Shown here: one piece after another, positions 5,481 to 49,848 of the stretch
How positions within the stretch are numbered: position 1 is the first letter of the stretch
Layout of the letters: the number at the start of each line of letters is the position of its first letter
Source: a candidate division Kazan bacterium
GTDB lineage: Bacteria > Patescibacteriota > Kazan-3B-28
DNA length: 64,000 nucleotides
Assembly: GCA_003647645.1 (NCBI GenBank)
Contig: QMNG01000002.1
Location: 65,151 to 129,150, forward strand
Reading direction: 5' to 3'
The notes under the pieces: generated by a model
Database searches by the model: none
Told to the model about the DNA's origin: nothing
Seen by the model: only the letters and a program-made list of their open reading frames with translations
Translations under genes and position numbers: made by a program

Positions 5481-5542
5481 AATATAGTTAAAGCGGTATC
5501 ATTATAGTAACCGATTTTAAATTACCGCATTGCGGTGTTCAT

Positions 5543-5619: not shown

Positions 5620-5626
5620 CCAATAT

Positions 5627-21143: not shown

Positions 21144-21356
21144 ATGAGTGCCCTGCTATTAACTATTTCCGTCTACACTATCTTTGTTTTGTTGATTGCT
21201 GTGTATGTGGCAATCAATGCCTACAACTTAGTTAGATTTAGGCTGGACAGGTTAGAGAATGATTGTTCCAAAATGATGTTGTTTATATATCTCACAGTCG
21301 TAATTACGATATTCTTTATATCCATTATCGGGGCAACAATTTCGTATAATTTGTAA
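21144..21356 (+). CDS. Small hypothetical membrane protein
   Basis: 70 aa with two hydrophobic helices, tightly packed between ruvB and the next gene. Confidence 0.45.
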   Translation: MSALLLTISVYTIFVLLIAVYVAINAYNLVRFRLDRLENDCSKMMLFIYLTVVITIFFISIIGATISYNL

Positions 21357-21360
21357 AACT

Positions 21361-22401
21361 ATGAACCAAAATAATTCCACCCCGCCAGAGAAGCCAGAGA
21401 AAATAGAAAAGGTTTACCGCCGGCACATTTTGAATTTGCTGGTGCCAATATCTTGGTCGGTGATGGTGTTGTTGCCGTTTATTGTCGTAATTATTTTTGT
21501 ATACAGGCTCGGTTATACGTCCGAACCCCTTGTTTTAATGGGACTGTGGCTGTTCGGCGGAGTGTATATCATCTTTGTGCTCAGCTTAATGATGATGCAA
21601 TGGATTATCTGGTACCTGGATATTTGGGTGCTAACCAGTAATCATCTGATTGATACTCAACTGGTGTCTCTGTTTAATCGCAAGATTGCCCATATACCCC
21701 TTAATCAGATTCAAGATGTTCAGGTCGGGGTGAAGGGCTATCTGCCGGCCATTTTTCGATTCGGTGATGTTACAGTGCAATCAGCCGGCAAGGAGGGCTC
21801 TTTTAAATTAAGCTCTATTAGTAACCCTAAGGAAGCTGCCAGGAAGATCCGTAAATTATGTGAAGCTTATCAGCACCAAAATCTGGGAGAAGCCGCCCAG
21901 AAAATAATTAGGCCGACTCAATCTCTTGGCAATATATTAGTCAGCCAAAATAAATTATCTCATAGTGATCTGACGGCTGCTCTTAATCAACAACAACGAG
22001 ACGGTCGCCAGTTGGGTAAAATTCTTTTGGAAAAAAATCTGATCACCCGTGAAGATCTGGTTAGTGCTCTAGGGAGTCAGTACCACATTCCCAGTCTGGA
22101 TTTGTCTCGCTACGAGATTGATCCGAAAATAATTAAACGTATGTCATATGATACGGCAGTTCGATATACGGTTATTCCCATATCGCAATCCCCCGAGGCT
22201 CTGACCGTGGCGATCGCCCATCCGTCTCCCGAAACGATTGGTGAGTTGGCTGCTCAAATGGATGTTCCGCTGGCATTTATGGTGGCAGACGAAGATTATA
22301 TTAAAGAGGCAATCAGGGGATATTATCAAGGAGCCAACAAGCCCGTTTCTTCTTCAGATGATGATTCCCCAACTACTTTGGAGGATTTAGGCTTGGAATA
22401 A
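21361..22401 (+). CDS. Membrane protein: bacterial PH (YdbS/T-like) domain fused to a GspE/MshE N-terminal-like (T2SSE_N) domain
   Basis: Two TM helices followed by WYLDIWVLTSNHLID...FGDVTVQSAG (bPH_2-like). The C-terminal half carries two tandem 24-residue segments, SLGNILVSQNKLSHSDLTAALNQQ and QLGKILLEKNLITREDLVSALGSQ, then YHIPSLDL...IPIS as in T2SSE_N. Confidence 0.65.
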   Translation: MNQNNSTPPEKPEKIEKVYRRHILNLLVPISWSVMVLLPFIVVIIFVYRLGYTSEPLVLMGLWLFGGVYIIFVLSLMMMQWIIWYLDIWVLTSNHLIDTQLVSLFNRKIAHIPLNQIQDVQVGVKGYLPAIFRFGDVTVQSAGKEGSFKLSSISNPKEAARKIRKLCEAYQHQNLGEAAQKIIRPTQSLGNILVSQNKLSHSDLTAALNQQQRDGRQLGKILLEKNLITREDLVSALGSQYHIPSLDLSRYEIDPKIIKRMSYDTAVRYTVIPISQSPEALTVAIAHPSPETIGELAAQMDVPLAFMVADEDYIKEAIRGYYQGANKPVSSSDDDSPTTLEDLGLE

Positions 22402-22511: not shown

Positions 22512-25500
22512 ATGCCAAGTTTAATCGACAGGATAAAAAACTGGTTTTTAATCCCCCGTAACCGTTACAGATTCATTCTTGGGGCGATTGGAGTTTTTGT
22601 ATTGGTGGGGGTTGTAGCATTTTCCTCGCAAATTGGCAATTTGCTCAGTTTGTTTGGAAGCAGGGCCTTTCAACCCTCCGACATTAGATGGCAAGCCGGT
22701 CCGGGGATCGAAGAGGGCGGCGGCAATCCTCAAAGTATCGTTGTTTCTGCAAATGATGGGAGCTGGTTATATTCGATCGGTGGATTAGATGCTGCCGGCG
22801 GTCATCGAAAAAACTCGGTGTATAGGATGAAGCTGGATGAAAATGGTCTACCGGGTGAATGGGAAGGATCCGGCCAAGGTGTCCCCCAGATGAATTTTCA
22901 AAGAGCTGGACACCGGCTCGTGGAGCATAACGGTTTTATTTATGCCATTGCCGGTGATATTCATATCTCTGAAACACCGGAAGTCGATCCCAATAGTCAC
23001 ATCATTGCCAAGGTATTTCCCCTTGCTTATTCGACAATCGAACGCTTGGACGCTAATGATCCTAGTGCCAGCTGGGAGATATTCGCCAGATTAACGGGTG
23101 TTCATTTCTTCCCCGAAGTCCTCTTAGACGGCGACTTGCTTTATGTTATTGGCGGGATTTACGGTAAAGTCGCGGGTATGGGTGGATTTGAAGAAGTGGC
23201 CAATTCTGACATTTTTAACAATAAGCCGGTGATTGGAGATGGTCTAAATGGTGTTCCCTTGACTGTCTCCGCATTTGGCACAGATGGTTTTGAGCAAAAG
23301 CTATCGCAGAGCGTCACTAACGGAACTTTTGTTACTACGGTTAGTGAGCGCTACGAAATTAATTTAGCAACTAATCCGCTCTCTTATGTAGTTGCCGAAT
23401 TGGGGTTGGACGGCGGGGATGTTTGTAAAACTTCCAGCGATGACAATACTAAATGTTTGATGGACTGGAATTGGATCAGTGCGCGGGTGGTCGGCGCCGA
23501 GATGAAGATGGGCCATTTGCGGTTCAAATTGTTTGGTGATGGTGGGTTCGCGCCAGTTCCTGTAGATGTCAAACCACTGCCCCAAGGCAGGTACGGTCAT
23601 AAAATATTTAAATCGGGCAGCGGCATATACGTAACGGGCGGAGCTGTATGGGCTGGTCCAATGAGGTTTCCAGCAGCATTTCCCCACCCAGAGCCAGCTG
23701 TCGTTTATCCATTTTGGCCAATTGGCGATACCACTTTCCCAAAAACTTACAATGGAGGAGACGATTCTCTGACTTATTGGAACAATGATTTTGTCGGGAA
23801 TACCACCTATCGATGGAATGGGTCTGTTTGGGCCGACTGGGTTGGAACGGGGCCTGAGGCCGAGGCGAAGAACAGGCACTTGGATGGTAAATATTCTTTA
23901 AAAGTTAGCGTGTCGCAAGGTTTAGACGATCCTCCGGTCATTTCGGGTCTGGCATTTATTGGCCTTGGCAGTTTCGATAGTAGTGCCAGTAATTCAACAA
24001 ACAAGCTTGTGGTTGGCGGTATCCGCAACACAAAAAATCATCTGTCAGCCACATCTGATGACTTATTATTCCATTCTACTGTCCACTACTATATGGAGTT
24101 GGACGGGGTTTCTGACAGCTTCACATTCAGTGTTGCCAGTGGCTGGACGCCGGCTGGCAATTACGGTTACAAACATTTTGGCATTGACGTAGTTGATCTC
24201 GGCAGCAAAGCAGTTGGCTTTGGCGGACAGCCATTATCTTATAGCTATCCGGGGAAAGATGGGCGAATTATTAAGGGGTGGCCACAATGGCCGCTGGGAT
24301 CAAAGGCCGGAGAAACAGACACTCAAATATTTAATGGTGCGGACTGGTCGCTATCTGGCAGTCATACTGCTGACCGGGTCGCAACTGCAGCGGTGGTTTA
24401 CAATAGCGGTGGAGACGAGGCGGTTATTTATCGCCTTGGCGGTGAGGAAATTACCGATCCTTGGCCGCCCAAGCTATGGACTATGCTGGAACACACAGAT
24501 CCCCTCACAATTTTTAATGTCCCCGATCTTAATACCTCTAAGTTTAAATTTGTCCCGGTTGACGAAGATGGAACTGTAAGAATTGGCGGTGATAATCATG
24601 ATATGGCAGCCGTGATATTCCAGCTGAACGATTTTGAGAACAATCCCATGCCCGGCATTTCTGTAGGGATTTCTACCGAGAACAATGAGGATCTAGATTT
24701 AATTGAAAAATGCATTCCTCAATACAGTGAAACCTGGGGCTGGTACTGTCCTGAAGGGGGCTGGTTCTCCGGTAGCAATCAAAATATATTGGGAACAACG
24801 GACGAAAACGGTATTGCTGAAATTTTTGTCAGATCAAAAGCTGTTATTGGCGAATCCGAATATCCAGACGGTCCAATAGTACATGATATAGTTGGTTTTT
24901 GGATTGTTGGTGGTAATACTCCGGATAATCCGACTGGGGAACACTTGTTCGGAGATCTGCAGTTATCCCGCAAGTGGACACCATTTGAGCCGAATTCAGG
25001 GGTGTATTTCTTGGATGAAAATGGGCGTCCCGAGACATCTCGCGTCAGACAGGTTCTGTCTGATAATAATGACTTCGCGGAGATAGAGGTTTTGCTTAAG
25101 GATGGCAATCCAATTACACCCCGCCCAGCCAACTTCTATGATGAATATATAAAGCTGGCTTCAACACACCTAATAACGGTGTTACAAACTGATCCGCCCA
25201 ATAATCTTCCAACTGCCGATGGCTCAGCCAGGTTTAGAGTTAAGTCAGGCGCTTCAGGAACGGCTGAAATTTATGCTTGGTATAAACCGGTTGTCTTTGT
25301 TGGGGTTGGTGAAACGGAGTGGTGGACAGATTATACTCCTTGGATTTCTCTGTCCGATTATGATTTAACTATTCAATTCGCTGGCCAGCCCGGTACCCTG
25401 ACCCCCGATAGTGCAGTACAGGGAGATCAAATAGGTACCTTGGCAGCCAATGGCAATGCTACTCGGTGGTTGCAGGGCGATACCACTGTAAAATTTATTA

Positions 25501-27470
25501 ATCCGCCTGAAATTATATTTAGTCACACCGGCGGTTTCGATGAGCTGAATAAGAGCCAGTTCTATAGTTTTGACATTAATGTCGGCAGCGAATATGCAGG
25601 CGCACTGATTGATCTTTTTGTCGTCGAAGGTGAAGGCGTTCTGCAACAAACTTCTGTAACTGCTGATGCCAATGGCTACGCAACTTTTAGATACACAACG
25701 GGCCCAGCCGCTGGAATCGAAAAGATTAGAGCCACCATTGCCAATGGACAAATTAGCAAGGAACTTTGGCTGACTGTTAAACACCCCATAGATTTATACA
25801 CGGTTGAGGTTAAAGTTGAACCCGATTCCCTTACCAGCGACAATCAATTTTCGATCATTAAGGCGCGGCTGACAAGTAATGAGACCGGCAGGCCAATAAC
25901 CGGGACTGAGCTGAGCTTTAGCTTTTCAAATAATGACAGTGGCACATTGCATCAGCCATTCTATGACAGCACGACCGGGATTGTTCAGGCTCTATATGAG
26001 GCCGGAGCTGACGGCAGAGACGCTGAGATACTGGTTGAGGCCAAATATCTGTCCAATCTGGTTATAAAACGAATTTCGATCGCCAATAATTTTGTCTACG
26101 GTGATCCGGGCATCATCTTCAACGATTCTGATTTAACGATATTAAGCGATACCGAGCTTACGCTTGGACATGTCAATGTCAGCGATAATGCCGAGGTTGG
26201 CTTCTGGATATTTAGGGTGATAACCGTTTTTGGCGACGTTACAGAAACATATGACTACTTGTTTGAAGTGCGCCCCAAAATTGTAGAAGGTGAAGGATTT
26301 ATTAACTACATCAGTCCTTCAGTCGGCCATCGGGGCATGGGTAACTTATCAGTTAATATTACTGGAATCAACACCTGGTTTAATGCCGTGGAAAACCCGA
26401 CTGTCCGGTTTACTCCAATAGACGCCGGTCAGGAATCTGGCATTCAGGTTGTCTCAGTTTCGGTTGTCGATGATTTTGATCTAACCGCCGATATAAACAT
26501 AGCCGACAATGCTGGTGTAGGATACTGGAATGTAGAAGTTGTCATCGGCAGCTATGTGTATGAAATGCCCGGTGACTTCGATTTCTTAATTGTGCCAGAC
26601 GACCCTTCGGGTTACTTTATGAATCTTGTGGTCGGCACGTACGGCGCTGGCTGGGAACCGGGTAGCCTGCCGGCCAATGGGACAGCCACTCTTAATTTAA
26701 CCGTTGCAGTCAAAAAATTTGATGTTTGGGAAAATTCGGAATACGCACTGACAGATGCAACAATTAATTCATCTATTGTTGAAGGTACGGGTGAGCTGAC
26801 GCCAATCAGCCGGCTGACCACTGGTGGCCAAGCTGCATTCACCTACCAAGCCGATACTGTTCAGGGTAATGTAGAAACATTATTCGAAAGCACAATCACT
26901 GACGAGCTTGTTGAGGGTGGTGAAGTTAATCTTGAAGCTGCTGCTACCCTCGCTAAGTTGGCCACACAAATTACATTTGATATTACTGTTCCCCTTGAAC
27001 ACAGCCGATACAACTACCGCGACAGCGCAGAGATTCGAGTAGTGGTCATAAAGGACGGCAGCTCAGTCCCGATTATAGATGACAAATTTAGGATAGATGC
27101 GAACGACAAGATCATTGGTCTGCCCAGTGTTTATGTTAGTCCCAGTGTGGAATATCACATTTGGGTAGATCCGCCCAATCATTTGGCCGTAGGGGCCACA
27201 TTTGCTGCGCCGGCGACCAGCCAGACTGTCTCTCCTGCCCTCACCTCGTACTACGGTACCCGTCTGTCATACATTGGGGATATAAACACGGGTGAACGCA
27301 ACAATAGCATTAATGCTTTTGACTATCAGGCGTTTCTTAATCAGATGTTTAAGAATCTGCTTTCCCCCTCCGCTGACTTTAATGGTGATGGCTATGTCAA
27401 TATCCTCGATTGGCCGGCCTTATTTAATAATTATTGGAAACAGGGCTATGTGGCGCCGTTTTCCGACTAA
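22512..27470 (+). CDS. Giant membrane-anchored surface protein: Kelch-like propeller + Ig-like (Big/invasin-type) repeats + C-terminal dockerin-like module
   Basis: 1652 aa with an N-terminal TM helix (FILGAIGVFVLVGVVAFSS). Repeated hhYhhGG blades (WLYSIGGLD, FIYAIAGD, LLYVIGGIYG, GIYVTGGA, VIYRLGGEE). Ig-like strands such as DENGIAEIFVRS, DANGYATFRYTTGPAAGIEKIRATI, TGGQAAFTYQAD. C-terminal DINTGERNNSINAFDY ... DFNGDGYVNILDW. Confidence 0.8.
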   Translation: MPSLIDRIKNWFLIPRNRYRFILGAIGVFVLVGVVAFSSQIGNLLSLFGSRAFQPSDIRWQAGPGIEEGGGNPQSIVVSANDGSWLYSIGGLDAAGGHRKNSVYRMKLDENGLPGEWEGSGQGVPQMNFQRAGHRLVEHNGFIYAIAGDIHISETPEVDPNSHIIAKVFPLAYSTIERLDANDPSASWEIFARLTGVHFFPEVLLDGDLLYVIGGIYGKVAGMGGFEEVANSDIFNNKPVIGDGLNGVPLTVSAFGTDGFEQKLSQSVTNGTFVTTVSERYEINLATNPLSYVVAELGLDGGDVCKTSSDDNTKCLMDWNWISARVVGAEMKMGHLRFKLFGDGGFAPVPVDVKPLPQGRYGHKIFKSGSGIYVTGGAVWAGPMRFPAAFPHPEPAVVYPFWPIGDTTFPKTYNGGDDSLTYWNNDFVGNTTYRWNGSVWADWVGTGPEAEAKNRHLDGKYSLKVSVSQGLDDPPVISGLAFIGLGSFDSSASNSTNKLVVGGIRNTKNHLSATSDDLLFHSTVHYYMELDGVSDSFTFSVASGWTPAGNYGYKHFGIDVVDLGSKAVGFGGQPLSYSYPGKDGRIIKGWPQWPLGSKAGETDTQIFNGADWSLSGSHTADRVATAAVVYNSGGDEAVIYRLGGEEITDPWPPKLWTMLEHTDPLTIFNVPDLNTSKFKFVPVDEDGTVRIGGDNHDMAAVIFQLNDFENNPMPGISVGISTENNEDLDLIEKCIPQYSETWGWYCPEGGWFSGSNQNILGTTDENGIAEIFVRSKAVIGESEYPDGPIVHDIVGFWIVGGNTPDNPTGEHLFGDLQLSRKWTPFEPNSGVYFLDENGRPETSRVRQVLSDNNDFAEIEVLLKDGNPITPRPANFYDEYIKLASTHLITVLQTDPPNNLPTADGSARFRVKSGASGTAEIYAWYKPVVFVGVGETEWWTDYTPWISLSDYDLTIQFAGQPGTLTPDSAVQGDQIGTLAANGNATRWLQGDTTVKFINPPEIIFSHTGGFDELNKSQFYSFDINVGSEYAGALIDLFVVEGEGVLQQTSVTADANGYATFRYTTGPAAGIEKIRATIANGQISKELWLTVKHPIDLYTVEVKVEPDSLTSDNQFSIIKARLTSNETGRPITGTELSFSFSNNDSGTLHQPFYDSTTGIVQALYEAGADGRDAEILVEAKYLSNLVIKRISIANNFVYGDPGIIFNDSDLTILSDTELTLGHVNVSDNAEVGFWIFRVITVFGDVTETYDYLFEVRPKIVEGEGFINYISPSVGHRGMGNLSVNITGINTWFNAVENPTVRFTPIDAGQESGIQVVSVSVVDDFDLTADINIADNAGVGYWNVEVVIGSYVYEMPGDFDFLIVPDDPSGYFMNLVVGTYGAGWEPGSLPANGTATLNLTVAVKKFDVWENSEYALTDATINSSIVEGTGELTPISRLTTGGQAAFTYQADTVQGNVETLFESTITDELVEGGEVNLEAAATLAKLATQITFDITVPLEHSRYNYRDSAEIRVVVIKDGSSVPIIDDKFRIDANDKIIGLPSVYVSPSVEYHIWVDPPNHLAVGATFAAPATSQTVSPALTSYYGTRLSYIGDINTGERNNSINAFDYQAFLNQMFKNLLSPSADFNGDGYVNILDWPALFNNYWKQGYVAPFSD

Positions 27471-27507: not shown

Positions 27508-29274
27508 ATGAAAAGTAAAAAAGTTAACCTGGCTTTTTTGTCCATCACTCTGCTGGTTGTGGGGGGGTTGGTTTGGGCGGGTGCTTGGTACATAAAGTCA
27601 AATAATAAATTGTCAGTTGCGATCAGTGCCTTTAAAGCGCCATCCACGGAAAAATTGGTTGGTCTTGATGAACTTCCCCCTTCGAATATTGTCCGGCCGT
27701 TTGTGGTTGGAGATGATGTCTATACTTTGGAACTGACTTTTGATAAGCGATATATCAGTCCGCTGCCCAGATCTTCTATCAAGGGGACAGTCCGGCTTCT
27801 TAAAAACGGGAAAGTTATCAACCAGATTCCTTCGCAGCTGACCGGAACAAACAGAGTTGAGAAGTTTGGCCAGCCAGCCAGAACTAAGATTGATCCTACA
27901 AAAATCCAACTCAATTTAACTAAGTTAAATCAGAACATACATCCCAATGTTAAGTTTTTGATCAACGGCGAAGAGCCACAGGGAGTATGCGATTATACGG
28001 CTCTCGATGAGTCCTTCCGTTCTGTTGTCAATCCGTATGCTTCCTACAGTCAAATTGGCTTTGGGGCGCAACCTCAGGCGGTGTCCACCATTCAATCGTA
28101 TGTTGTATCAGCCCAAGCACTCAATGAAGGTCGTAATCTTAAGTATGGTCAACTGGATATCAGCAGCGGTCAAGCTGAGTTTGAATATGTTTTTGATGGC
28201 AAACGTATCCTCCCTTATCTCGAGTTTGAGCTTGGCACTGAACGCGGAGAGCTGTTAACCAGTCAGTCGGTTTTCTTTGAAGACCAAAAGCAATCTAGAG
28301 TTACAGTTCCAGATATCAACCGCCAGCTAAAGGGCTCCGATATATACTACGATATGGTCTTTTCTGAAAGTCGGCTTAATCTTAAAGATGAACAAACTTT
28401 CGATATTGAAATTACTTCGCGGGATACTAACAGCGGTGAAATCAACACAAATCCATTCCAGCGAGTTATACTCACACTTATTCCGCCCGCGCAGATATTT
28501 GAATTGGAGGAGATTAGACAAGAAACACGATATGATGGATCTTCTGAGTTGGCGCAGTTCTTTTATGGACATGTCAATCTAATTAGACCGGGACATTTCA
28601 TACACACGGATGAGCTGGCCGACTATTATGGGGCTATGGTCGGTCGTTATATTCCTCACCGCTCAATGTTTCCCAATAGTCGTCTCTACTATACCAACGA
28701 CTGCGAAATCGACCAGTCGTTTGCCGTTGAGCTTGATCTAATCGACGGTTATGGACGGGTTGAGTTTTCCTACTCCGGTAGCCAGGAGTGGCTGCCGTAC
28801 CTGACGTTTCTAGTCCAGCCGACCAACTACTTTTTTGAGTACGCCGGATGGCAGGATGGCGAACCTCCACATCAGGGTGCATTTAGCGGAATTTACCTGG
28901 GAAGCTTATCACTGTATGAGCAAGAAGGAATATTAGGCGATATTAAATCGATGTATCGTGAAACAGAAGATATCATTTATCCCCCGCTGGTGGATGAATC
29001 GGGCAATGATGTTCATGCTTGCCCCAATTTTACTTGGGCTACATCGCGACAAGGTTGCTACAAACTTTACGGAAATGATTGGATGGATGAAGATGAATTT
29101 CAGCAGTTTATAAATAGTGTTTATACAATAGCCAGTCTGCCAATCGGTTCAGTATCGTTGTCATCTTCTTTGAGTATTTGGTGGTGGTTCATATTGTTAC
29201 AGATATTTATTGGGCTTGGCGGCGGTTTGATCCTGAGACAAAAAATAAAATTACCAAATGGAAAAAATAAATAA
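27508..29274 (+). CDS. Bitopic surface-module protein, paralog 1 (unassigned family)
   Basis: 588 aa with N-terminal and C-terminal TM helices. Shares family motifs YTLELTFDKRYISPLPRSSIKGTVRLL, SGQAEFEYVFDGKRILPYLEFEL, FEDQKQS, YYDMVF, GEINTNPFQRV, ELDLIDGYGRVEFSY, VQPTNY, WMDEDE, VYTIASLPI. Confidence 0.8.
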   Translation: MKSKKVNLAFLSITLLVVGGLVWAGAWYIKSNNKLSVAISAFKAPSTEKLVGLDELPPSNIVRPFVVGDDVYTLELTFDKRYISPLPRSSIKGTVRLLKNGKVINQIPSQLTGTNRVEKFGQPARTKIDPTKIQLNLTKLNQNIHPNVKFLINGEEPQGVCDYTALDESFRSVVNPYASYSQIGFGAQPQAVSTIQSYVVSAQALNEGRNLKYGQLDISSGQAEFEYVFDGKRILPYLEFELGTERGELLTSQSVFFEDQKQSRVTVPDINRQLKGSDIYYDMVFSESRLNLKDEQTFDIEITSRDTNSGEINTNPFQRVILTLIPPAQIFELEEIRQETRYDGSSELAQFFYGHVNLIRPGHFIHTDELADYYGAMVGRYIPHRSMFPNSRLYYTNDCEIDQSFAVELDLIDGYGRVEFSYSGSQEWLPYLTFLVQPTNYFFEYAGWQDGEPPHQGAFSGIYLGSLSLYEQEGILGDIKSMYRETEDIIYPPLVDESGNDVHACPNFTWATSRQGCYKLYGNDWMDEDEFQQFINSVYTIASLPIGSVSLSSSLSIWWWFILLQIFIGLGGGLILRQKIKLPNGKNK

Positions 29275-30835
29275 ACAAATCTTAAATCGCAAACCATTCC
29301 CATGGTCCAAAATTGGGCTGGTTGGATTAATACTTGCATTTAGCATTACGCTGCTGTTTTGGTGGTTGAAGCCATTCTCGTTCTCCGGCCGTGCCGGCTG
29401 TGTCGTAGATGATAAATCAAAAATCTATGCGACTGCTCCCAAAGTTGCCCATATGTATGAGGGCGAGCTACTTGAATATCCACTATTAGACGACGGCAGT
29501 TTTGTTCCCTCCAACACTGTTATAAAGCACCAAGCCGTCGGTCATGAGTATGCGTTGCGGGTTTCCTTCGAAAAACCGTACATCAGCCCGGTCCCCGGTT
29601 CGTCAATTAAGGGCGAAATCCAGCTGTTAATGGACGGCAGGCCCATTATTAATATTCCCAGAGATAGTTCCGGCAACCTGAACTTGAAGTTGCCGCAAAT
29701 CGCAGTTCATATTGACGGAGTTGGCATTCAATCAAAAATTAGTTATCTCGGTCAATCCAACAATATTGTAGTTTCTTCTACACACAACCCTTTTCCCATA
29801 ACTCAGATTTATTCGCCCCAAGCTGACCCTCTGCCAAATGTGACTATGATTGGCAGCCGCTTGCAGGGATATAAAGCTAGCTATATAGATCTTTCACGCG
29901 GAAAGGCAGAGATTGAACTTTTCTATTTTGGCGAGAGAACTGCCCCGTATATTTCACTGAGGTTCAATGATCGTTTTTCCTCAATGGCAACTACAAAAAT
30001 TTTATGTTTTGAAGATCAGGCAAATCCAAGAGTCAGTTCTCCCAAAATCGATACCCAAGCCAAGGGTGAGTTCTATTACGATGTGTCAGTAGTCCCCGCT
30101 TCTTTGCAGTCAGGCCATCAGCAGGACATTAAGATAAGTATTGTCGCCAGGAATTCAAGAACAGGACGTGTTGACACTAACCCCTATCAACGGGTTAATA
30201 TCTGGGCGTATCCGCTTATAAAGCCGGAGATTCGCAGCCGCAGTTCTTCAATCAGCCAATCCGGTCCCGGAGTGAGATTTCTTCGAGAGCCTCGCGGGGT
30301 ATTTATTCTTGAAGATACCCATAACCCCAAAATCAGTAAGCTGCAAATTAAACAAGCCGCCGAAAACAACGGCGATAACAACGGATTGGAGCTTGATTTA
30401 ATCAAGGGGCGCGGAACAGCTTATTTCAATTATGGTGGCACCGATCAACTTCCCTCTACTCCTCTTACATTCGTTGTTCAGCCAACTAATTATGCCATTG
30501 ATAGTGCGGTGTCAGCGAACGGTAATGTAATGCCGCATCGGCTCGAAGCTAAGATCGAGTATCCCAGTAAACCGGCAGATTTCATTCAGGGCCCAGCCGG
30601 CAACCGTCAAGTTATTAGCTCTAGCTTTCTGTACCGAAATTGGATGGACGATGATTCTCTCAGATATGCCGTGTACACGATCAAATCATTGAACATTGGC
30701 GGTCCCAAAATAAGTTTAGAGCCCAATGTTTGGTTCTGGATCCTTGTTAGCCAAATAAGCAAACTTATATTTGCCGGCGGATTAATCTGGTTGCTGGTAA
30801 GGAAACATAGAAATAAATATGAAACGAGCAACTAA
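29258..30835 (+). CDS. Bitopic surface-module protein, paralog 2
   Basis: 525 aa. Same motif order (YALRVSFEKPYISPVPGSSIKGEIQLL, YSPQA, RGKAEIELFYFGERTAPYISL, YYDVSV, TNPYQRV, LELDLIKGRGTAYFNY, VQPTNY, WMDDDS). N- and C-terminal TM helices. 17-nt overlap with paralog 1. Confidence 0.8.
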   Translation: MEKINKQILNRKPFPWSKIGLVGLILAFSITLLFWWLKPFSFSGRAGCVVDDKSKIYATAPKVAHMYEGELLEYPLLDDGSFVPSNTVIKHQAVGHEYALRVSFEKPYISPVPGSSIKGEIQLLMDGRPIINIPRDSSGNLNLKLPQIAVHIDGVGIQSKISYLGQSNNIVVSSTHNPFPITQIYSPQADPLPNVTMIGSRLQGYKASYIDLSRGKAEIELFYFGERTAPYISLRFNDRFSSMATTKILCFEDQANPRVSSPKIDTQAKGEFYYDVSVVPASLQSGHQQDIKISIVARNSRTGRVDTNPYQRVNIWAYPLIKPEIRSRSSSISQSGPGVRFLREPRGVFILEDTHNPKISKLQIKQAAENNGDNNGLELDLIKGRGTAYFNYGGTDQLPSTPLTFVVQPTNYAIDSAVSANGNVMPHRLEAKIEYPSKPADFIQGPAGNRQVISSSFLYRNWMDDDSLRYAVYTIKSLNIGGPKISLEPNVWFWILVSQISKLIFAGGLIWLLVRKHRNKYETSN

Positions 30836-33800
30836 CAAATACTTACCTAGGCCACGGCTGATGCTGCCACAAGCCCAAAGGTCCAACCTCAGTTGGATAG
30901 CGATCGGATTGGGCGTAGCCGCCTTGGCGGTGATCATCTGGGTGCTGCTGTTGCCACCCCGGTTAACCCCTCCCCCGGTTCACATTTACGATGGTGAAAA
31001 TATACGCTATGAGCTGCGTCGGGGCACCTATGTTCAAGTTGACGAAACTAGAACTGCCAGCGTTGGGTTGGCTGAATATAGTTTGGAATTAAATTTTGAC
31101 AAACAACAGATTAGTCCGATGATTGGCTCCAGTCTCAAAGGCACTATTCAATTGTTAAATAATGGTGTGTCGGTTGACCAAATGCCGGAGTCGCTCTGGT
31201 CCCAAGTATCCAAAAGTGAGACTCCAACTCCCAGAGTTTATTTGAAAACCTATGGGGTCTATGGCTGGGGATGTTCAACCTACCAGCCACAGATGGCAAT
31301 TCTTGGTGAAACTGAATCGGGTCAATTAGCGGCCAAGGGCTTAAGTTCGTCGCTAAAGACTGACTGGGATGCGTGCGGGCCAACAACTAAATATATTTCC
31401 ATCAAAAGGTACAAAACCCCCGATCTATCTTCGTATATTTACTCTCCGCAGGCGATTCAGGTTTTGGATGAAAAAAATAATCTAGTTTCGACTTATCTTG
31501 ATCTCAGCCAAGGCCAAGCTGAATTTGAGTTTGTATATCAGGGCGGACGTTATGCTCCCTATTTGGAGTTTGAAATATTCAATTCGCTGCAGCAGGATAT
31601 CTACACTCGCAAAATTGTTCCATTTCAGGACCAAAAACAATCAGTAATTGACGTAGCCGATCCAACGATTCAAAAGGGCAGAATTAACTATCAGGTTGAA
31701 TTTAGCAGCGAGGCGTTGACTGCTGAACAGGAAGAAACTATTCGGATAGATATTACGGCTCTTGACAGTGCAACTGGCGAAGTTCACGATCTTCCCTACC
31801 AGCGCGTGAAAGTGTGGGCCTATCCTTTGGCATACTATGTCAAGTACACTCAGCGTTCGTTTGTGCCTTTTGACTCTCTGTTTGTTGAAAAAGGAATTCT
31901 GGAGCAGCCGGGTGAATTTATTGGAGATCTGACAAATGGCAAAGTTGATGATGCCATTGTTGATTCTAACAACAGGCATAAGACATTGCTCTATGACAAA
32001 GGCGAGTATATTGAGGCTGACTTGATAGACGGTAAAACTAGTGTTTATTTCAAGTACAACGGCAAGTACCGCCAGTCTCCCCATTTAGCATTTGTGGTCC
32101 AGCCCGCCAATTACGATTATGAATACACTATTGAAAAGCTTCAGAAATTTGGTGGCGATGTTTTTTCTGGAAAGCAGTTTATTTATCCGGCTGCTCCTCT
32201 TACCACGCCTAGATATTCAACCGAAATGCCTCCTCGTCCCGACTGGCCGGACGATATAGAAGATATTGAATTTTTGAAGGGAATTGATTCGGACTACGTA
32301 TTTTTGTATGAACAATGGCAGCGTAATGATGCTGTGGTCAACGAAAATTATTCAGTAACAACTTTGCCGATTAAGATCCCCAAAGGGACGGCAGAAAAAA
32401 TAAACTGGCTGTTTATTTGGCGCAGCTGGATGTGGTTGGTAGCTCCGGCTATTGCTGCTGCAGTTGGCCTCATTTTGTTTTATATTGCCCGCCGCCGCAA
32501 AGTTAATATTTTCAGCCAACGCGGCAAACGGATCGCCGCCAATCCACGAATTGGGCATCTCTCTCTTTTGTCCAAACGCGGAGTAATTGCTGTTGCGTTT
32601 GTGGCCGCTGCGGCAATACTGGTTTTTGCAATGGTGGTAAACTACGACACTAGTTTGGCTGAACTGCCTGATGCCGGGCTTAAGGACAGTTTTCCCCCGG
32701 CTAACCAACAGCAAGCAGGCCCTAGCTCTGGTTATCGATTGGATATTAGTTTTGAGAACGATATTCTTAATCCTTATCCGGGTGGCATATCCAAGGGTGT
32801 TGTTCGGGTGCTGGATGCCAACGGTCAAATCTTGCCGGTGGACGGAACAGTTAGTTTGGTCGAGGGAGTAATTGATTTTGATTTTAATATCCGTGAGACT
32901 CGTCCAGTTTTGCGCCAAACCGACAGGCGCAGCAACTACGGTGAAATTCGTGGTTTAGAAAGTATTCGCCGGGAAATTATTGATCCCGCTGTAATTGAAT
33001 TAGTTAAAGAAGAAAATAACTCTGCAGGGATATTGGAAGGCATCCTTGAGAACAATACAGATTTAATTGGCGGGGATCAGGCAGCCGATGCTGTTCGGGA
33101 TATTATTGGTACGCTTACCGACATTATTGATGAGTACTACGTTATTCCAGTTGAAGTAAAACCCAGCACCGATTTCTGGGAGCCGGGCTGCTCTGTCGAT
33201 GTATTTTCGGGCCGTGTTAAATGTAGCGAAGTGCTGCTGCTTCATAATGGCGTAGCTGAGTTTGAATATATCAGCCACGGGGTCCGGTATCCTTACACAA
33301 CCTTCTCAGTTATGGCCCGTGAGGTTCCCTCCCAACATCTAAAGATCTATAACCAAATTAATTATGAGTCGTATGCGCCAGGTCTGGCCATAGACAACGA
33401 GGAAGCGGCCAGTGCCTATCGGCTCGCCTCGTGGGGCATTGACAGAGATTTCAGACAGTATCAGGAAGACCTTGCCCGAAATGATTACTCGTTGCCTCCT
33501 GCCTCAGTTTGGACGCTTAAATCAGTTCCTTTCGGCCGATATCAGGATTTTACTCCTCCGCTTCCCGCTGATGATTCCATCCAAACCAAAGTGGATTATT
33601 ACTATGAAATTAAATCCAGTGTCGCTAAGCCCGAGTTAACCGAGGGAAACCGTTTCCAAATCACCATTGTACCCCGGGCTTTGGCCGGCAGATCGGTTCC
33701 CAGCAATATATCTAATCGCGCCATACTAACTATTTTGCCAAGCTATGATCCTGTGGATGACAATAGTGATGATGCGACTGATGTGAAAATATACGCCGCC

Positions 33801-34262
33801 AAGCTGGCCAAGCCGGGGAGCGGCGAATTGGTCGAGGAAATTAAATTGGTCCTTACTGATAAGCCAGTTACTGTCGATCTTGAGTTTACCGGGGAGGCGT
33901 CAATCCTTCCTTACCTCAAATTTAATCTTAAAGTGTTCGGAGTTGAAGGGTATCCGGAATACATGAAATTTGATGATCAAATATATAAAGATTCAATTCC
34001 ACAAGCAACACTAAATACAGTGATTCGGAACCAATCGCCTTATTATCGCGTTGAGAGTCCGGAAATTATGACTATTAGCGCGTCGGTTCCCCTGCGGACG
34101 GCCAATCTTTGGGGAGTTATTAAATCGTCTGATGTTTATCATTTTGGCTGGTGGTTCATTGCCTCACAAATTATTCAAATACTTGCTGCCGGTATGATGA
34201 TTATAATCTTTAGAAAACGTCGGCGCAGCCGCCCGAGATCGAACCATGAAAAAGAAAAATAA
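30819..34262 (+). CDS. Double-module surface protein (fusion of two paralog units), paralog 3a+3b
   Basis: 1147 aa. The first half has the full motif set (YSLELNFDKQQISPMIGSSLKGTIQLL, YSPQA, QGQAEFEFVYQGGRYAPYLEFE, LPYQRVKVWAYPL, VVQPANY). A central TM-loop-TM hairpin lies at about nt 32398-32645. The second half is a more divergent module (YRLDISFENDILNPYPGGISKGVVRVL, NGVAEFEYISHG, YYYEI) ending in the family C-terminal anchor. Confidence 0.8.
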   Translation: MKRATNKYLPRPRLMLPQAQRSNLSWIAIGLGVAALAVIIWVLLLPPRLTPPPVHIYDGENIRYELRRGTYVQVDETRTASVGLAEYSLELNFDKQQISPMIGSSLKGTIQLLNNGVSVDQMPESLWSQVSKSETPTPRVYLKTYGVYGWGCSTYQPQMAILGETESGQLAAKGLSSSLKTDWDACGPTTKYISIKRYKTPDLSSYIYSPQAIQVLDEKNNLVSTYLDLSQGQAEFEFVYQGGRYAPYLEFEIFNSLQQDIYTRKIVPFQDQKQSVIDVADPTIQKGRINYQVEFSSEALTAEQEETIRIDITALDSATGEVHDLPYQRVKVWAYPLAYYVKYTQRSFVPFDSLFVEKGILEQPGEFIGDLTNGKVDDAIVDSNNRHKTLLYDKGEYIEADLIDGKTSVYFKYNGKYRQSPHLAFVVQPANYDYEYTIEKLQKFGGDVFSGKQFIYPAAPLTTPRYSTEMPPRPDWPDDIEDIEFLKGIDSDYVFLYEQWQRNDAVVNENYSVTTLPIKIPKGTAEKINWLFIWRSWMWLVAPAIAAAVGLILFYIARRRKVNIFSQRGKRIAANPRIGHLSLLSKRGVIAVAFVAAAAILVFAMVVNYDTSLAELPDAGLKDSFPPANQQQAGPSSGYRLDISFENDILNPYPGGISKGVVRVLDANGQILPVDGTVSLVEGVIDFDFNIRETRPVLRQTDRRSNYGEIRGLESIRREIIDPAVIELVKEENNSAGILEGILENNTDLIGGDQAADAVRDIIGTLTDIIDEYYVIPVEVKPSTDFWEPGCSVDVFSGRVKCSEVLLLHNGVAEFEYISHGVRYPYTTFSVMAREVPSQHLKIYNQINYESYAPGLAIDNEEAASAYRLASWGIDRDFRQYQEDLARNDYSLPPASVWTLKSVPFGRYQDFTPPLPADDSIQTKVDYYYEIKSSVAKPELTEGNRFQITIVPRALAGRSVPSNISNRAILTILPSYDPVDDNSDDATDVKIYAAKLAKPGSGELVEEIKLVLTDKPVTVDLEFTGEASILPYLKFNLKVFGVEGYPEYMKFDDQIYKDSIPQATLNTVIRNQSPYYRVESPEIMTISASVPLRTANLWGVIKSSDVYHFGWWFIASQIIQILAAGMMIIIFRKRRRSRPRSNHEKEK

Positions 34263-36024: not shown

Positions 36025-37559
36025 AAAAAAATATGAACAACAAAATGATCTACATAGCAGCCAGCTTTATGGTTATGCTGTTGCTGATGGGCGGAGGTGT
36101 GCCAAGTATAGCTCAAGGACTTTTGGCATCTTCGGGCCCCTCTGCGGCGGCCTATTCACTTAGGGTGGCATTTGACGAACCGTCCATTAGTCCTCTTCCG
36201 GGATCAATTATTTCCGGTCGAGTGGTCCTGTTGCAAAATGGAGAGCCGTCCAAGTCAATTCCGGCGGACCTATGGCCGGACAATGTCCGGGAACAGTTCA
36301 CGCCGCAACTTGATATTAAAGTTGGAGGTGTGCGTAATGTTTATTATTATCGGGGCGAGTATGAATATGGACGAGAATCTTCCCAGCACCGGCTGGCGGT
36401 CAGCGAGTCTGCTCTGCTCAAGACCCAGATATTTTCCCCTCAGGCTACTAACCAGTGGGACTACCCGATTAATGGGGACAAATTTTTAGCCACGTTGGAT
36501 TTCTCGTCTGGCGATGCTCAGTTTAGCTATGTCTACGGCGGCGGGGCGGTTGGTAATAAGCTTACATTTGATTTTACTGCTCGCTTCTTTGATACAAATG
36601 TTTTAGCGTCAGAAGTTTTGCCATTTGGCAGCGGTATAGACGACATCATCCGATCTCAAGATTTAAATCGGCAGGTTAAAGGTAATTTTTATTATGACGT
36701 GAGTTTTGATACAATTTCAGTCAACAAAGACAGGCAGCGGCATGTAAAAATTACCATCACGGCTAAAGAAACACACAACAATCAGATCTATGATAATCCC
36801 TATCAGCGTGTGCGCGTGGTACTGCGGCCTATTCGGGTTGAATATGATCCCAATGCCAGAGATTTCATTGCCAAAACTACATTCTATTACCCCGGGCAGT
36901 TCCGCGGCACGAAACTTTTTGTAAATGAGAAAGCTAATTGGGCCAAGACGGCCGTTTACCATTCATCCTATAAGCTGCGTGATTATCCGCAAAATGTCAG
37001 ATCCGAGCCCTATGAAAATAATTTCAATGCAGTTGAGCTTGACTTAGTCAACGGCAAAGGCGAGGTTTGGTTTACCTACGAGGGTCAGCAGGGGTTTGTT
37101 CCCTATGTCTCTTTTCGAGTTTCCCCAACTGATTACACTCGAGGTAATCGTCAATATGCGTCAAACAGTACGTCGTACAGGACCAAATTAGAGATTCCCC
37201 GTCGGCCGCCGGACTTTGTGATGTTGTACGGCACATGGATGAAAGATGATTCGTTGGCTGAGAGAGTTTTTACGATTGCTTCCCTGCCGATTGCCAATCC
37301 AGCCGCTAATTACGTTCCTCCGTCATTGGGCAGTCCAGTTGAGGTAATTCTGGAGGACATTGAGAATAATTCACTGAAGCAAAATTACGATGCTGTCCAG
37401 CCGCAGACCCCGACTACCGATGGGGATGAATTGCCGCTTGCCAAACACAATCGGCAGGCAATCTGGTGGCTCATTGGTTTTCACATCAGTGTGGTCTTAC
37501 TTGGCGGAGCATTAATCTTTATACTAAAAAGGAAAAGAAAGAGTTATGGAAAAAACTAG
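36021..37559 (+). CDS. Bitopic surface-module protein, paralog 5
   Basis: Start placed at the ATG at 36021 (ATGA overlap with the paralog 4 stop; MKKNMNNKMIYIAASFMVMLLL signal/anchor). YSLRVAFDEPSISPLPGSIISGRVVLL, FSPQA, SGDAQFSYVYGG, FYYDVSF, DNPYQRVRV, ELDLVNGKGEVWFTY, WMKDDS, FTIASLPI. C-terminal TM + KRKRK. Confidence 0.78.
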   Translation: MKKNMNNKMIYIAASFMVMLLLMGGGVPSIAQGLLASSGPSAAAYSLRVAFDEPSISPLPGSIISGRVVLLQNGEPSKSIPADLWPDNVREQFTPQLDIKVGGVRNVYYYRGEYEYGRESSQHRLAVSESALLKTQIFSPQATNQWDYPINGDKFLATLDFSSGDAQFSYVYGGGAVGNKLTFDFTARFFDTNVLASEVLPFGSGIDDIIRSQDLNRQVKGNFYYDVSFDTISVNKDRQRHVKITITAKETHNNQIYDNPYQRVRVVLRPIRVEYDPNARDFIAKTTFYYPGQFRGTKLFVNEKANWAKTAVYHSSYKLRDYPQNVRSEPYENNFNAVELDLVNGKGEVWFTYEGQQGFVPYVSFRVSPTDYTRGNRQYASNSTSYRTKLEIPRRPPDFVMLYGTWMKDDSLAERVFTIASLPIANPAANYVPPSLGSPVEVILEDIENNSLKQNYDAVQPQTPTTDGDELPLAKHNRQAIWWLIGFHISVVLLGGALIFILKRKRKSYGKN

Positions 37560-49846: not shown

Positions 49847-49848
49847 TT

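What the first reader, a model, noticed from the sequence alone, without database searches (positions are those of the whole stretch)
27279..27470. Dockerin-like calcium-binding module at the C-terminus of the giant protein, with no recognisable cohesin
The last ~60 residues read DINTGERNNSINAFDYQAFLNQMF...SADFNGDGYVNILDWPALFNNY. The second segment fits the dockerin/EF-hand loop pattern D-x-N-x-D-G-x-[IV]-[ND]-x-x-D followed by a helix. The first segment is a degenerate copy, giving the usual duplicated-segment layout of type I dockerins. Dockerins normally bind cohesins, and I see no obvious cohesin here. The six co-operonic beta-sandwich modules are therefore candidate non-canonical receptors, though this is speculation.
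Basis: partly seen in the sequence, partly recalled or inferred. Interest (0 to 1): 0.6.

Follow-up and report, generated by a model that had tools for sequence, protein, structure and literature searches.

The report
X-module plus dockerin tail, Kazan bacterium
The last 168 residues of a 1652-residue membrane-anchored surface protein of an uncultured Kazan (Patescibacteria) bacterium form a divergent calcium-binding docking unit, best known for fastening cellulosomes to clostridial cells, and its binding partner here is unknown.

Summary
The peptide is at 27279-27470, and the strict calcium-loop motif occurs only once in all six frames of the window.

- On its own the tail scores below the curated dockerin cut-offs (Pfam 18.7 bits against 22.9). 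A profile built from its homologues settles the matter. It finds solved dockerins (E down to 6e-7) and proteins that pass Pfam's Dockerin cut-off (10 of 10 tested). The calcium-ligand positions are conserved in 51 family representatives.
- It is not a lone type I dockerin. It is an X-module plus dockerin pair (26964-27467). The AlphaFold2 model has pLDDT 93.8, and its ten best PDB matches are all type II cohesin/X-dockerin complexes.
- The pair ends a family of N-terminally anchored surface proteins of mostly 1500-3000 residues, held in a conserved gene cassette.

No cohesin is detectable in the window. The six neighbouring modules are a real paralogous family. They also follow the giant gene in one more distant relative, but they are missing at that position in the closest relative, which keeps the dockerin 72% identical. 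They show no cohesin signal, so their role as receptors is unsupported but not excluded.

This is a new, unannotated member of a known module family in an unusual setting. Interest is moderate.

The parts
22512..27470 (+). Giant surface-protein gene (1652 aa). In NCBI it is RLC37702.1, 'hypothetical protein', candidate division Kazan bacterium. In UniProt it is A0A420ZDL7, 'Big-1 domain-containing protein'.
   Evidence: ORF list and translation. Homologues share both termini. Exact look-up of names. The conserved N-terminus supports the ATG at 22512 rather than the shorter database start of P0001.
22572..22625 (+). N-terminal transmembrane anchor (FILGAIGVFVLVGVVAFS). It lies inside a highly conserved N-terminal motif, PRNR.R...FS[ST]QIGNL[LF]SLFGS[RK]A.
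   Evidence: Read directly from the sequence. The first 63 aa are 50-73% identical to the window's sequence in five homologues, with 27 invariant columns. The orientation, with basic residues before the helix and the bulk of the protein outside, is inferred from the positive-inside rule.
26964..27266 (+). X module: a beta-sandwich of about 100 residues directly before the dockerin (conserved VPLE..YD ... GLP..YL....Y..W.KG..HLA).
   Evidence: Alignments A2 and A3. The A3 profile aligns through the second half of the X module and the dockerin of the solved X-Doc chains 5k39_B and 2b59_B. AlphaFold2 predicts strands across residues 2-106 at high confidence. Foldseek aligns about 168 columns to X-Doc chains.
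27276..27467 (+). Dockerin module: two F-hand segments plus a short C-terminal tail (GDIN...PFSD).
   Evidence: Pfam Dockerin_1 and NCBIfam dockerin_GC are the best hits but below cut-off. The family profiles hit PDB dockerins. Foldseek aligns the dockerin part to 2y3n_B at rmsd 1.6 A over 59 columns.
27279..27323 (+). First calcium-binding loop, DINTGERNNSINAFD. Assigned positions are D1, N3, a 3-residue insertion GER, then N5 N6 S7 I8 N9 A10 F11 D12.
   Evidence: Family conservation in 51 representatives: D1 51/51, D/N5 46, N6 49, I/V8 49, N9 43, D12 51. Spacing compared with P0002 and CipA. Which residues actually bind calcium is inferred.
27315..27344 (+). Dockerin helix 1 (AFDYQAFLNQ).
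   Evidence: DSSP on the AlphaFold2 model gives a helix at tail residues 118-127. Coordinates computed.
27375..27410 (+). Second calcium-binding loop, DFNGDGYVNILD. This is a canonical 12-residue loop.
   Evidence: Unique strict-motif hit in the window. Family conservation: D/N1 51/51, N/D3 33, D/N5 49, V/I8 50, N/D9 50, D/E12 51.
27411..27428 (+). Dockerin helix 3 (WPALFN), followed by the conserved N[YFW]..G motif.
   Evidence: DSSP gives a helix at tail residues 150-155. N156 and G161 are invariant in A3.
21144..22401 (+). Context: two conserved genes directly upstream. One is a 70-aa protein with two TM helices (21144-21356). The other is a membrane protein with bPH_2 and MshEN (c-di-GMP-binding motif) domains (21361-22401).
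   Evidence: Pfam and NCBIfam. Same order in L001, L003 and L007; L002 has only the bPH_2 part.
27508..37559 (+). Context: five genes encoding six paralogous modules (20-31% identical). Each module lies between an N-terminal TM helix and a C-terminal TM helix with a basic tail.
   Evidence: Translations and alignment. Orthologues of M1, M2 and M3a lie in the same order downstream of the giant gene in L007. No match in L001-L006 or L008. No Pfam or PDB-sequence match to cohesin. Low-confidence all-beta model.
37546..37866 (+). Context: conserved 106-aa single-TM protein ending ...FLMGF. Its orthologues lie directly after the giant gene in L001 and L003, and after one intervening 1310-aa gene in L002.
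   Evidence: Translations from the window and from L001, L002 and L003. Gene tables.

Best explanation
Residues 1485-1652 of the giant protein (26964-27467) are an X-module plus dockerin pair. A roughly 100-residue beta-sandwich packs against a two-loop, calcium-binding F-hand dockerin. The unit is homologous to the type II X-Doc units that fasten cellulosomal scaffoldins to cohesins on clostridial cell surfaces.

Here it ends an N-terminally membrane-anchored, Ig-domain-containing surface protein of a candidate division Kazan (Patescibacteria) bacterium. The most likely mechanism has three steps:
1. The protein is exported and held by its N-terminal helix.
2. The dockerin folds around two Ca2+ ions at the far end of the protein.
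3. Supported by the X module, it acts as a plug for a beta-sandwich receptor that is not identifiable in this window.

What is shown: homology, predicted fold, ligand conservation, terminal position and conserved gene order. What is inferred: calcium binding, topology, and that the function is protein docking. What is unknown: the receptor. On present evidence the six adjacent modules are not the conserved receptor.
For: Sequence:
- Dockerin models are the best hits for the tail.
- Profiles of the tail family hit almost only dockerins in the PDB. A1: the top 17 are all dockerins, best E 1.8e-6. A3: 5k39_B E 6.3e-7 and 2b59_B E 2.7e-5, aligned through the second half of the X module and the dockerin.
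- In 1.84 billion representative proteins the A2 profile finds 852 hits at E<=1e-3. About 51 carry the whole X+Doc unit within 19 residues of the C-terminus of mostly 1500-3000-aa proteins.
- Ten of ten other hits tested pass Pfam's Dockerin_1 cut-off, and one of them also has a Cohesin domain.
- 11 of 33 family tails hit Dockerin_1 at E<=0.01, best 1.5e-8.

Structure:
- The AlphaFold2 model of the 168 residues has pLDDT 93.8 and pTM 0.89.
- Its ten best Foldseek PDB hits are all X-Doc chains of type II cohesin-dockerin complexes. E is 8e-7 to 6e-6 and TM 0.56-0.63 over about 168 columns; the next hit has E 1e-2.

Conservation:
- Calcium-ligand positions are kept in 51 representatives.
- Between the window and its closest relative the dockerin is 72% identical, X+Doc 56%, the N-terminal 63 aa 73%, and the whole protein 40%.
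- The gene cassette is conserved in five other genomes.
Against: - The single sequence is below both curated cut-offs (18.7 against 22.9 bits; 22.4 against 29).
- Identity to solved X-Doc chains is only 14-18%, and rmsd is 4.6-5.9 A over the whole unit.
- The first loop has a 3-residue insertion here, and up to about 20 residues in relatives. Its calcium binding is therefore uncertain.
- No cohesin was found in the window or in about 20 kb around five orthologues, so the docking function has no identified partner.
- Dockerin-like modules outside cellulosomes are widespread and most have no tested function (as reviewed in PMC9012536).
- The protein already has its own membrane anchor, so the cellulosomal role of anchoring to the cell cannot simply be carried over.
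Confidence: 0.7

Rival explanations
1. The six adjacent beta-rich membrane modules (27508-37559) are non-canonical receptors of the dockerin. The giant protein would plug into them to build a surface assembly.
For: - The modules lie directly downstream on the same strand with overlapping start and stop codons, so they are probably co-transcribed.
- They are predicted to be extracellular and all-beta, between two TM helices.
- The same array (orthologues of M1, M2 and M3a, 36-51% identical) follows the giant gene in L007, a more distant relative (RuvB 78% identical). The linkage is therefore older than this genome.
Against: - They are absent after the giant gene in the closest relative, L001 (RuvB 90%, S8 peptidase 81% identical). 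That relative keeps a 72%-identical dockerin with intact loops and near-identical helices. They are also absent in L002, L003 and L008.
- About 51 family representatives carry X+Doc, but modules were seen in only two genomes.
- No Pfam Cohesin hit at E<=1 and no cohesin among PDB sequence hits at E<=10.
- Two pattern scans of JGI metagenome contigs found no further copies. These are weak negatives.
- The model is too poor to judge the fold (pLDDT 52.6), and its Foldseek hits are generic tandem Ig-like arrays with TM 0.13-0.17.
Confidence: 0.12
2. The module has the dockerin fold but does not bind a cohesin. It would bind something else, such as a host-cell surface glycan or protein, or another domain of the same or a neighbouring giant protein. 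Alternatively it may only act as a calcium-stabilised cap of the fibre.
For: - No cohesin in the window or in orthologous flanks.
- The protein has its own TM anchor, so it does not need a cohesin to stay on the cell.
- Published work treats non-cellulosomal dockerins in Patescibacteria and Omnitrophota as possible adhesins. Examples are an essential dockerin-domain protein, SEML1_0315, in Southlakia (PMC10633639) and giant ORFs with many dockerins (PMC10066038; bioRxiv 10.1101/2023.11.21.568195).
Against: - The closest solved relatives are all cohesin binders.
- The X-Doc arrangement and both helices are conserved across the family, as expected for a specific protein interface.
- Only 64 kb of a roughly 0.5 Mb genome was visible, so a cohesin may lie elsewhere.
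- One related X-Doc-like protein in the database does carry a Pfam cohesin (P0071).
Confidence: 0.3
3. It is a chance or generic EF-hand-like D-x-N-x-D-G motif of the kind found in FG-GAP repeats, thrombospondin type 3 repeats or calmodulin-like EF-hands, and not a dockerin.
For: - Sub-threshold single-sequence scores.
- The top phmmer hit of the tail alone against the PDB is an EF-hand protein at a non-significant E of 0.12.
- A weak FG-GAP hit (E 0.069).
Against: - The motif is unique in the window with about 0 expected by chance.
- The two segments are significantly similar to each other.
- The family profile hits are dockerins, not EF-hand proteins.
- The whole-unit structural matches are X-Doc chains with a gap of about 2000-fold in E-value to the next fold.
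- The module sits at the extreme C-terminus in all 51 representatives.
Confidence: 0.03

Closest known systems
Type II X-module/dockerin (X-Doc) pairs of cellulosomal scaffoldins. Examples: Clostridium thermocellum CipA X-DocII (PDB 2B59, 5G5D, 3KCP, 4FL4), C. thermocellum 5K39 and 5M0Y, and the ScaA X-Doc in Coh3ScaB complexes (4WI0, 4U3S).
   Same: - A beta-sandwich X module lies directly before, and is packed against, a two-segment calcium-loop dockerin at the extreme C-terminus of a long multi-domain extracellular protein.
- The first loop has the form GD-x(n)-DN-x-IN-x-x-D, as in CipA (GDIVKDNSINLLD) and 5K39 (GDVERKGVQDNAINMVD).
- A [FY]G motif follows helix 3.
- The profile match runs through the second half of X and the dockerin, and the whole unit superposes.
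   Different: - Only 14-18% identical.
- The host is a Kazan/Patescibacteria bacterium with no cellulosome genes in view (no cohesin, SLH module or glycoside hydrolase in the window).
- The carrier protein has its own N-terminal TM anchor, so the pair is not needed for cell attachment as it is in CipA.
- The insertion in loop 1 varies in length (0 to about 20 residues).
- The partner is unknown.
Type I dockerins of cellulosomal enzymes (Pfam PF00404 Dockerin_1; for example CelS 1DAQ, Xyn10B 1OHZ).
   Same: Duplicated segment of about 22 residues with a D-x-N-x-D-G-x-[IV]-N-x-x-D loop followed by a helix. The second loop of the query is fully canonical. Spacing between the loops is 32 residues.
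   Different: - Type I modules stand alone without an X module.
- They rank lower than X-Doc chains with the full A3 profile and do not appear among the top ten whole-unit structural hits.
- The query scores below Pfam's cut-off.
Non-cellulosomal dockerin-bearing surface proteins of ultra-small or symbiotic bacteria. Examples: the essential dockerin-domain protein SEML1_0315 of Southlakia epibionticum (PMC10633639) and the 'Dockerin-type' giant proteins of Omnitrophota (PMC10066038; bioRxiv 10.1101/2023.11.21.568195).
   Same: Dockerin modules on large envelope proteins of reduced-genome, probably host-dependent bacteria with no cellulolytic lifestyle. The proposed role is adhesion.
   Different: - As described in the passages read, those proteins carry Pfam-recognisable dockerin repeats, often many in tandem.
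- No X-Doc pair is mentioned there.
- Here there is a single, terminal, sub-threshold dockerin fused to an X module, in a conserved cassette.
- Homology to SEML1_0315 was not tested.

Membership tests
Dockerin (Pfam PF00404 / dockerin superfamily) | Significant sequence relationship to established dockerins | tested here: met
   The single sequence is below the curated cut-offs (Pfam 18.7 bits, or 17.1 in the 168-aa tail, against 22.9; NCBIfam dockerin_GC 22.4 against 29). At family level the test is met. Profiles A1 and A3 hit PDB dockerins at E 1.8e-6 and 6.3e-7. 11 of 33 family tails hit Dockerin_1, best 1.5e-8. The A2 profile retrieves proteins that pass Dockerin_1's cut-off in 10 of 10 tested.
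Dockerin (Pfam PF00404 / dockerin superfamily) | Two tandem F-hand segments, each a 12-residue calcium loop followed by a helix | tested here: met
   Loop 2 is canonical. Loop 1 is a recognisable copy with a 3-residue insertion. Segment self-similarity has p of about 5e-5. The model places helices at tail residues 118-127 and 150-155, straight after the loops.
Dockerin (Pfam PF00404 / dockerin superfamily) | Acidic or amide calcium ligands at loop positions 1, 3, 5, 9 and 12, conserved in orthologues | tested here: met
   In 51 representatives: loop 1 D1 51, D/N5 46, N9 43, D12 51; loop 2 D/N1 51, N/D3 33, D/N5 49, N/D9 50, D/E12 51. Position 3 of loop 1 is not conserved, because of the variable insertion.
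Dockerin (Pfam PF00404 / dockerin superfamily) | Calcium-dependent folding and calcium occupancy | not testable with these tools
   AlphaFold2 does not model ions and no coordinates were available. This needs ITC, CD or a crystal structure.
Dockerin (Pfam PF00404 / dockerin superfamily) | Binds a cohesin module | not testable with these tools
   No cohesin in the 64 kb window or in orthologous flanks. The rest of the genome could not be read.
Type II X-module/dockerin pair | Beta-sandwich X module immediately N-terminal to the dockerin and packed against it | tested here: met
   pTM is 0.89 for the two-domain unit. Ten X-Doc chains align over about 168 columns at E around 1e-6. The A3 profile aligns positions 58-158 to residues 59-155 of 2b59_B.
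Type II X-module/dockerin pair | Partner is a type II cohesin of a cell-surface anchoring protein, in a cellulosome context | tested here: not met
   No cohesin, SLH module or glycoside hydrolase appears among the window's ORFs. The organism is a Kazan/Patescibacteria bacterium. It is therefore filed as an X-Doc-like pair (fold and homology), not as part of a cellulosome system.
Cohesin (tested for the six downstream modules) | Sequence match to Pfam Cohesin (PF00963) or to solved cohesins | tested here: not met
   No Cohesin hit at E<=1 for any of the five ORFs. The profile of the six modules finds no cohesin in the PDB at E<=10.
Cohesin (tested for the six downstream modules) | Nine-stranded jelly-roll beta-sandwich fold | tested here: inconclusive
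   The model of module M2 has pLDDT 52.6. It is all-beta between two TM helices. Foldseek returns only generic tandem Ig-like arrays at TM 0.13-0.17 and no cohesin in the top 50.
Cohesin (tested for the six downstream modules) | Co-occurrence with the dockerin across genomes | tested here: not met
   The modules follow the giant gene in the window and in L007 only. They are absent from that position in L001 (the closest relative), L002, L003 and L008. Whole genomes could not be checked.

The most novel reading that the evidence does not exclude
A clade of Patescibacteria uses an X-module/dockerin plug at the outer tip of a fast-evolving, membrane-anchored giant fibre as a calcium-dependent grappling device. 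Its receptor would be neither a classical cohesin nor part of any cellulosome. It could be a host-surface component or the lineage-specific two-anchor beta modules. The whole cassette may be under c-di-GMP control through the adjacent bPH_2/MshEN membrane protein. That would place the 'cell-surface attachment' branch of the cohesin-dockerin system in episymbiont biology and outside the Firmicutes.
Probability: 0.2. Interest if true: 0.7.

Novelty: new member of a known kind. Interest (0 to 1): 0.42.

Why it matters
How Patescibacteria (CPR bacteria) attach to other cells or organise their envelope is largely unknown. Most of their large surface proteins are annotated 'hypothetical'. This one is 'hypothetical protein' in NCBI and 'Big-1 domain-containing protein' in UniProt.

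Recognising a conserved, high-confidence X-Doc pair at the free end of a syntenic giant-protein family gives a small, expressible 168-residue bait. That bait can be used to fish for the receptor. The family also shows that the X-Doc architecture, so far solved only from cellulosomal scaffoldins, occurs in a very different lineage and setting.

It remains a domain assignment with an unknown partner, so the importance is moderate.

Tried and rejected
- Single-sequence searches gave only sub-threshold or non-significant dockerin hits: Pfam, NCBIfam, and phmmer against the PDB. They were not decisive alone.
- A word-indexed homologue search with the tail alignment found only one fragment, P0009.
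- The same kind of search with the six-module alignment found only the query's own protein, P0153. It missed the real orthologues later seen in L007, so its negative result carries little weight. My interim conclusion that the modules were an orphan insertion specific to this genome was wrong and was revised.
- The genome scan with the N-terminal motif recovered only two genomes already in hand.
- Two metagenome scans with module patterns found nothing.
- The module structure prediction was low-confidence and its fold matches are uninformative.
- phmmer of the whole giant protein against the PDB gave nothing useful.
- Conserved neighbours were checked as possible cohesin carriers. The C-terminus of the S8 peptidase consists of repeated NBR1-like Ig domains. 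The 304-aa protein is a lipoprotein with an LSGC lipobox. Neither looks like a cohesin by sequence. No fold test was possible.
- Kelch-like repeats in the N-terminal half are my reading of the sequence. Pfam does not support them for this protein. There are only faint precomputed hits for the homologue in L008.
Full report
**Observation.** ORF 22512..27470 (+) encodes 1652 residues. DFNGDGYVNILD (27375-27410) is the only match to the strict dockerin/EF-hand loop pattern in all six frames of the window. None was found in 100 shuffles. The preceding segment, DINTGERNNSINAFD plus its helix, is a degenerate copy of the second. The ungapped BLOSUM62 score is 29 over 19 residues, which shuffles reach in about 5e-5 of trials.

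**Is it a dockerin?** Scored alone, the tail is a near miss.
- Pfam Dockerin_1 gives 18.7 bits against a cut-off of 22.9.
- NCBIfam dockerin_GC gives 22.4 against 29.
- phmmer against PDB sequences gives collinear but non-significant dockerin alignments at E 0.24.

I therefore collected relatives. Eight homologues of the giant protein share a conserved N-terminal anchor and a conserved C-terminal tail; those that carry a source name are from Patescibacteria.

A profile of the eight tails (A1) hits dockerins and little else in the PDB. The top 17 are all dockerins, with 2y3n_B at E 1.8e-6. There is a full-length alignment to the CipA type II dockerin, including the 'DNSINLLD' first loop and the terminal 'HFG'.

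A profile of the last ~170 residues (A2) was searched against 1.84 billion representative proteins. It returned 852 hits at E<=1e-3. About 51 carry the whole unit within 19 residues of the C-terminus of proteins mostly 1500-3000 aa long. The remainder are largely proteins with several tandem matches to the dockerin part. All ten of those I tested pass Pfam's Dockerin_1 cut-off, and one also has a Cohesin domain. Eleven of 33 family tails reach Dockerin_1 at E<=0.01, best 1.5e-8. Sequences such as P0062 (DLNDDNEINSLD...DFNGDGEVNSLD) link the divergent members to textbook dockerins.

The calcium-ligand positions are strongly conserved in the 51 representatives:
- Loop 1: D1 51/51, D/N5 46, N6 49, N9 43, D12 51.
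- Loop 2: D/N1 51, N/D3 33, D/N5 49, N/D9 50, D/E12 51.

**It is an X-Doc pair, not a lone type I dockerin.** The roughly 100 residues before the dockerin are conserved across the family (VPLE..YD ... GLP..YL....Y..W.KG..HLA). With the 33-sequence alignment A3, the best PDB sequence hits become X-module/dockerin chains, aligned through the second half of the X module and the dockerin:
- 5k39_B, E 6.3e-7, profile positions 61-157 on residues 62-157.
- 2b59_B (CipA X-DocII), E 2.7e-5.
- 4wi0_B, 4u3s_B and 3kcp_A also match.

AlphaFold2 on A3 gives a confident two-domain model with pLDDT 93.8 and pTM 0.89. It has a beta-sandwich followed by helices at tail residues 118-127 and 150-155, immediately after the two loops. 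Foldseek against the PDB returns ten hits at E 8e-7 to 6e-6. Every one is the X-Doc chain of a type II cohesin/X-dockerin complex, aligned over about 168 columns at TM 0.56-0.63. The next hit is at E 1e-2; transthyretin-like sandwiches, which match the X module alone, dominate the weaker hits. The dockerin part superposes on 2y3n_B at 1.6 A over 59 columns.

The first loop follows the X-Doc style, GD-x(n)-DN-x-IN-x-x-D:
- The closest relative, P0002, has the same 12-residue spacing as CipA (GDIEPNNNINTFD against GDIVKDNSINLLD).
- The window protein has three extra residues.
- Other members have up to about 20 extra residues.

The feature therefore spans 26964-27467, not only 27279-27470.

**Context.** The protein is RLC37702.1 / A0A420ZDL7 of a candidate division Kazan bacterium. 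It is annotated only as 'hypothetical' or 'Big-1 domain-containing'. A relative is annotated 'Ig-like domain-containing protein [Patescibacteria group bacterium]'.

The gene order is conserved in L001, L003 and L007, and with minor differences in L002 and L008:
S8 peptidase, BacA, small exporter, RuvB, a 66-70-aa two-TM protein, a bPH_2/MshEN membrane protein, the giant gene, a ~110-aa TM protein, TsaB(-), TsaE(-), LTD protein(-), RNase Y.

Basic residues precede the N-terminal helix, so the bulk of the protein, dockerin included, should be outside the cell. This is an inference.

Between the window and its closest relative, L001 (RuvB 90% identical), identity varies along the giant protein:
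- whole protein: 40%
- N-terminal 63 residues: 73%
- X+Doc: 56%
- dockerin: 72%

Both ends are conserved while the middle evolves fast. This fits a fixed anchor, a fixed plug and a variable shaft.

**The partner.** No ORF of 150 aa or more in the window hits Pfam Cohesin. None is recorded in the precomputed Pfam tables of the five orthologous loci.

The five downstream genes (27508-37559) do encode six paralogous modules, 20-31% identical. Each lies between an N-terminal TM helix and a C-terminal TM helix with a basic tail, and the genes have overlapping start and stop codons.

I first took them for a genome-specific orphan insertion, because the word-indexed search found only the query's own protein. 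That was wrong. L007, a more distant relative (RuvB 78%), has orthologues of M1, M2 and M3a in the same order right after its giant gene.

Yet the closer relative, L001, lacks them at that position, as do L002, L003 and L008. L001 nevertheless keeps near-identical dockerin loops and helices. The simplest reading is that the array was ancestral to this sub-clade and was lost or moved in L001 without relaxing the dockerin. That argues against the modules being its sole receptor.

Other evidence on the modules:
- They have no cohesin signal in Pfam or PDB sequences.
- The structure model of M2 is poor (pLDDT 52.6), and its fold matches are generic Ig-like arrays with TM below 0.2.
- Two pattern scans of JGI metagenome contigs found no more copies. 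These are weak negatives.

The hypothesis is unsupported but not excluded (about 0.1).

**Mechanism proposed.**
- Shown: homology and predicted fold of an X-Doc pair, conserved ligand positions, extreme C-terminal position, and a conserved cassette.
- Inferred: two Ca2+ ions organise the F-hands. The X module buttresses the dockerin, as in the type II complexes that are the best structural matches (Adams et al. 2006, cited in PMC12484212). The unit then plugs into a beta-sandwich receptor.
- Open: the protein has its own anchor, so the plug is more likely to capture something at the distal end. That could be another envelope protein, giving two-point attachment or a lattice. It could also be a partner cell. 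Published work on Patescibacteria and Omnitrophota proposes adhesion roles for non-cellulosomal dockerins without identified receptors (PMC10633639; PMC10066038; bioRxiv 10.1101/2023.11.21.568195; general background in PMC9012536).

**Verdict.** It is a dockerin, but more precisely a type II-like X-Doc pair. There is no cohesin in view, and the six-module receptor idea is weak. This is a new, unannotated member of a known module family in an unusual lineage and architecture. Interest is 0.42.

Noticed in passing
window 21144-22401: Two genes lie directly upstream of the giant gene, in the same order in L001, L003 and L007 (L002 keeps only the bPH_2 part). One is a 70-aa protein with two TM helices. 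The other is a membrane protein with a bPH_2 domain and an MshEN-type c-di-GMP-binding motif (NCBIfam NF053729, 49.8 bits against a cut-off of 38). This suggests c-di-GMP control of the surface protein, which would be unexpected in such a reduced genome.
   Followed up: partly
window 37546-37866: A 106-aa single-TM protein with a conserved C-terminal block ending F[LM][LVM]GF. Its orthologues lie directly after the giant gene in L001 and L003 and after one intervening gene in L002. In the window it follows the module array. It may be a partner or accessory of the giant protein.
   Followed up: partly
window 22512-22700: The N-terminus of the giant-protein family is far more conserved than a plain TM anchor needs: PRNR[SY]R, then the TM helix, then FS[ST]QIGNL[LF]SLFGS[RK]A, with 27 invariant columns among six proteins. 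It could be a sorting or processing signal. The database entry P0001 starts 30 residues too late.
   Followed up: partly
window 27508-37559; L007 15401-19164: A family of beta-rich modules of about 500-600 aa, each lying between an N-terminal and a C-terminal TM helix with a basic tail. There are six copies in five genes, and one gene (30819-34262) is a fusion of two modules. Starts overlap stops in ATGA style. Orthologues were seen only in one other MAG (GCA_043801895.1). There is no Pfam, NCBIfam or PDB-sequence match, and the function is unknown.
   Followed up: partly
L002 15246-19178: In the OY968788.1 genome, the slot after the giant gene holds a different 1310-aa secreted protein with Kelch/beta-propeller hits instead of the module array. 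This position looks like a variable hot spot for surface-protein genes.
   Followed up: no
window 15124-16038: A conserved 304-aa lipoprotein (LSGC lipobox) with no Pfam match. It is present at the same position in L001, L002, L003 and L007.
   Followed up: partly
window 48868-57595: Two consecutive pairs of an ECF sigma factor and a DUF5667 protein (a putative anti-sigma factor) precede a second giant ORF (52940-57595, 1551 aa). That ORF has only a weak NPCBM_assoc hit and no dockerin match to the family profile.
   Followed up: no
window 16567-18789: The S8 subtilase at the head of the conserved cassette carries a Big_1 domain. Its alignment (A6) appears to show two NBR1-like (N_BRCA1_IG) Ig-like repeats, of which Pfam matched only the C-terminal one (628-733). 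A surface protease so tightly linked to the giant protein could process it.
   Followed up: no
P0073 (787 aa): A related X-Doc tail with near-canonical loops sits on a protein that its source names as an ErfK/SrfK L,D-transpeptidase. P0071 combines a Pfam cohesin with a related dockerin. X-Doc-like tails therefore occur on quite different carriers in uncultured organisms.
   Followed up: no
window 4494-6518: A cluster of six tRNA genes (Gly, Arg, His, Arg, Lys, Glu). The mechanical ORF 5558-6019 overlaps tRNA-His and tRNA-Arg and is probably spurious.
   Followed up: no
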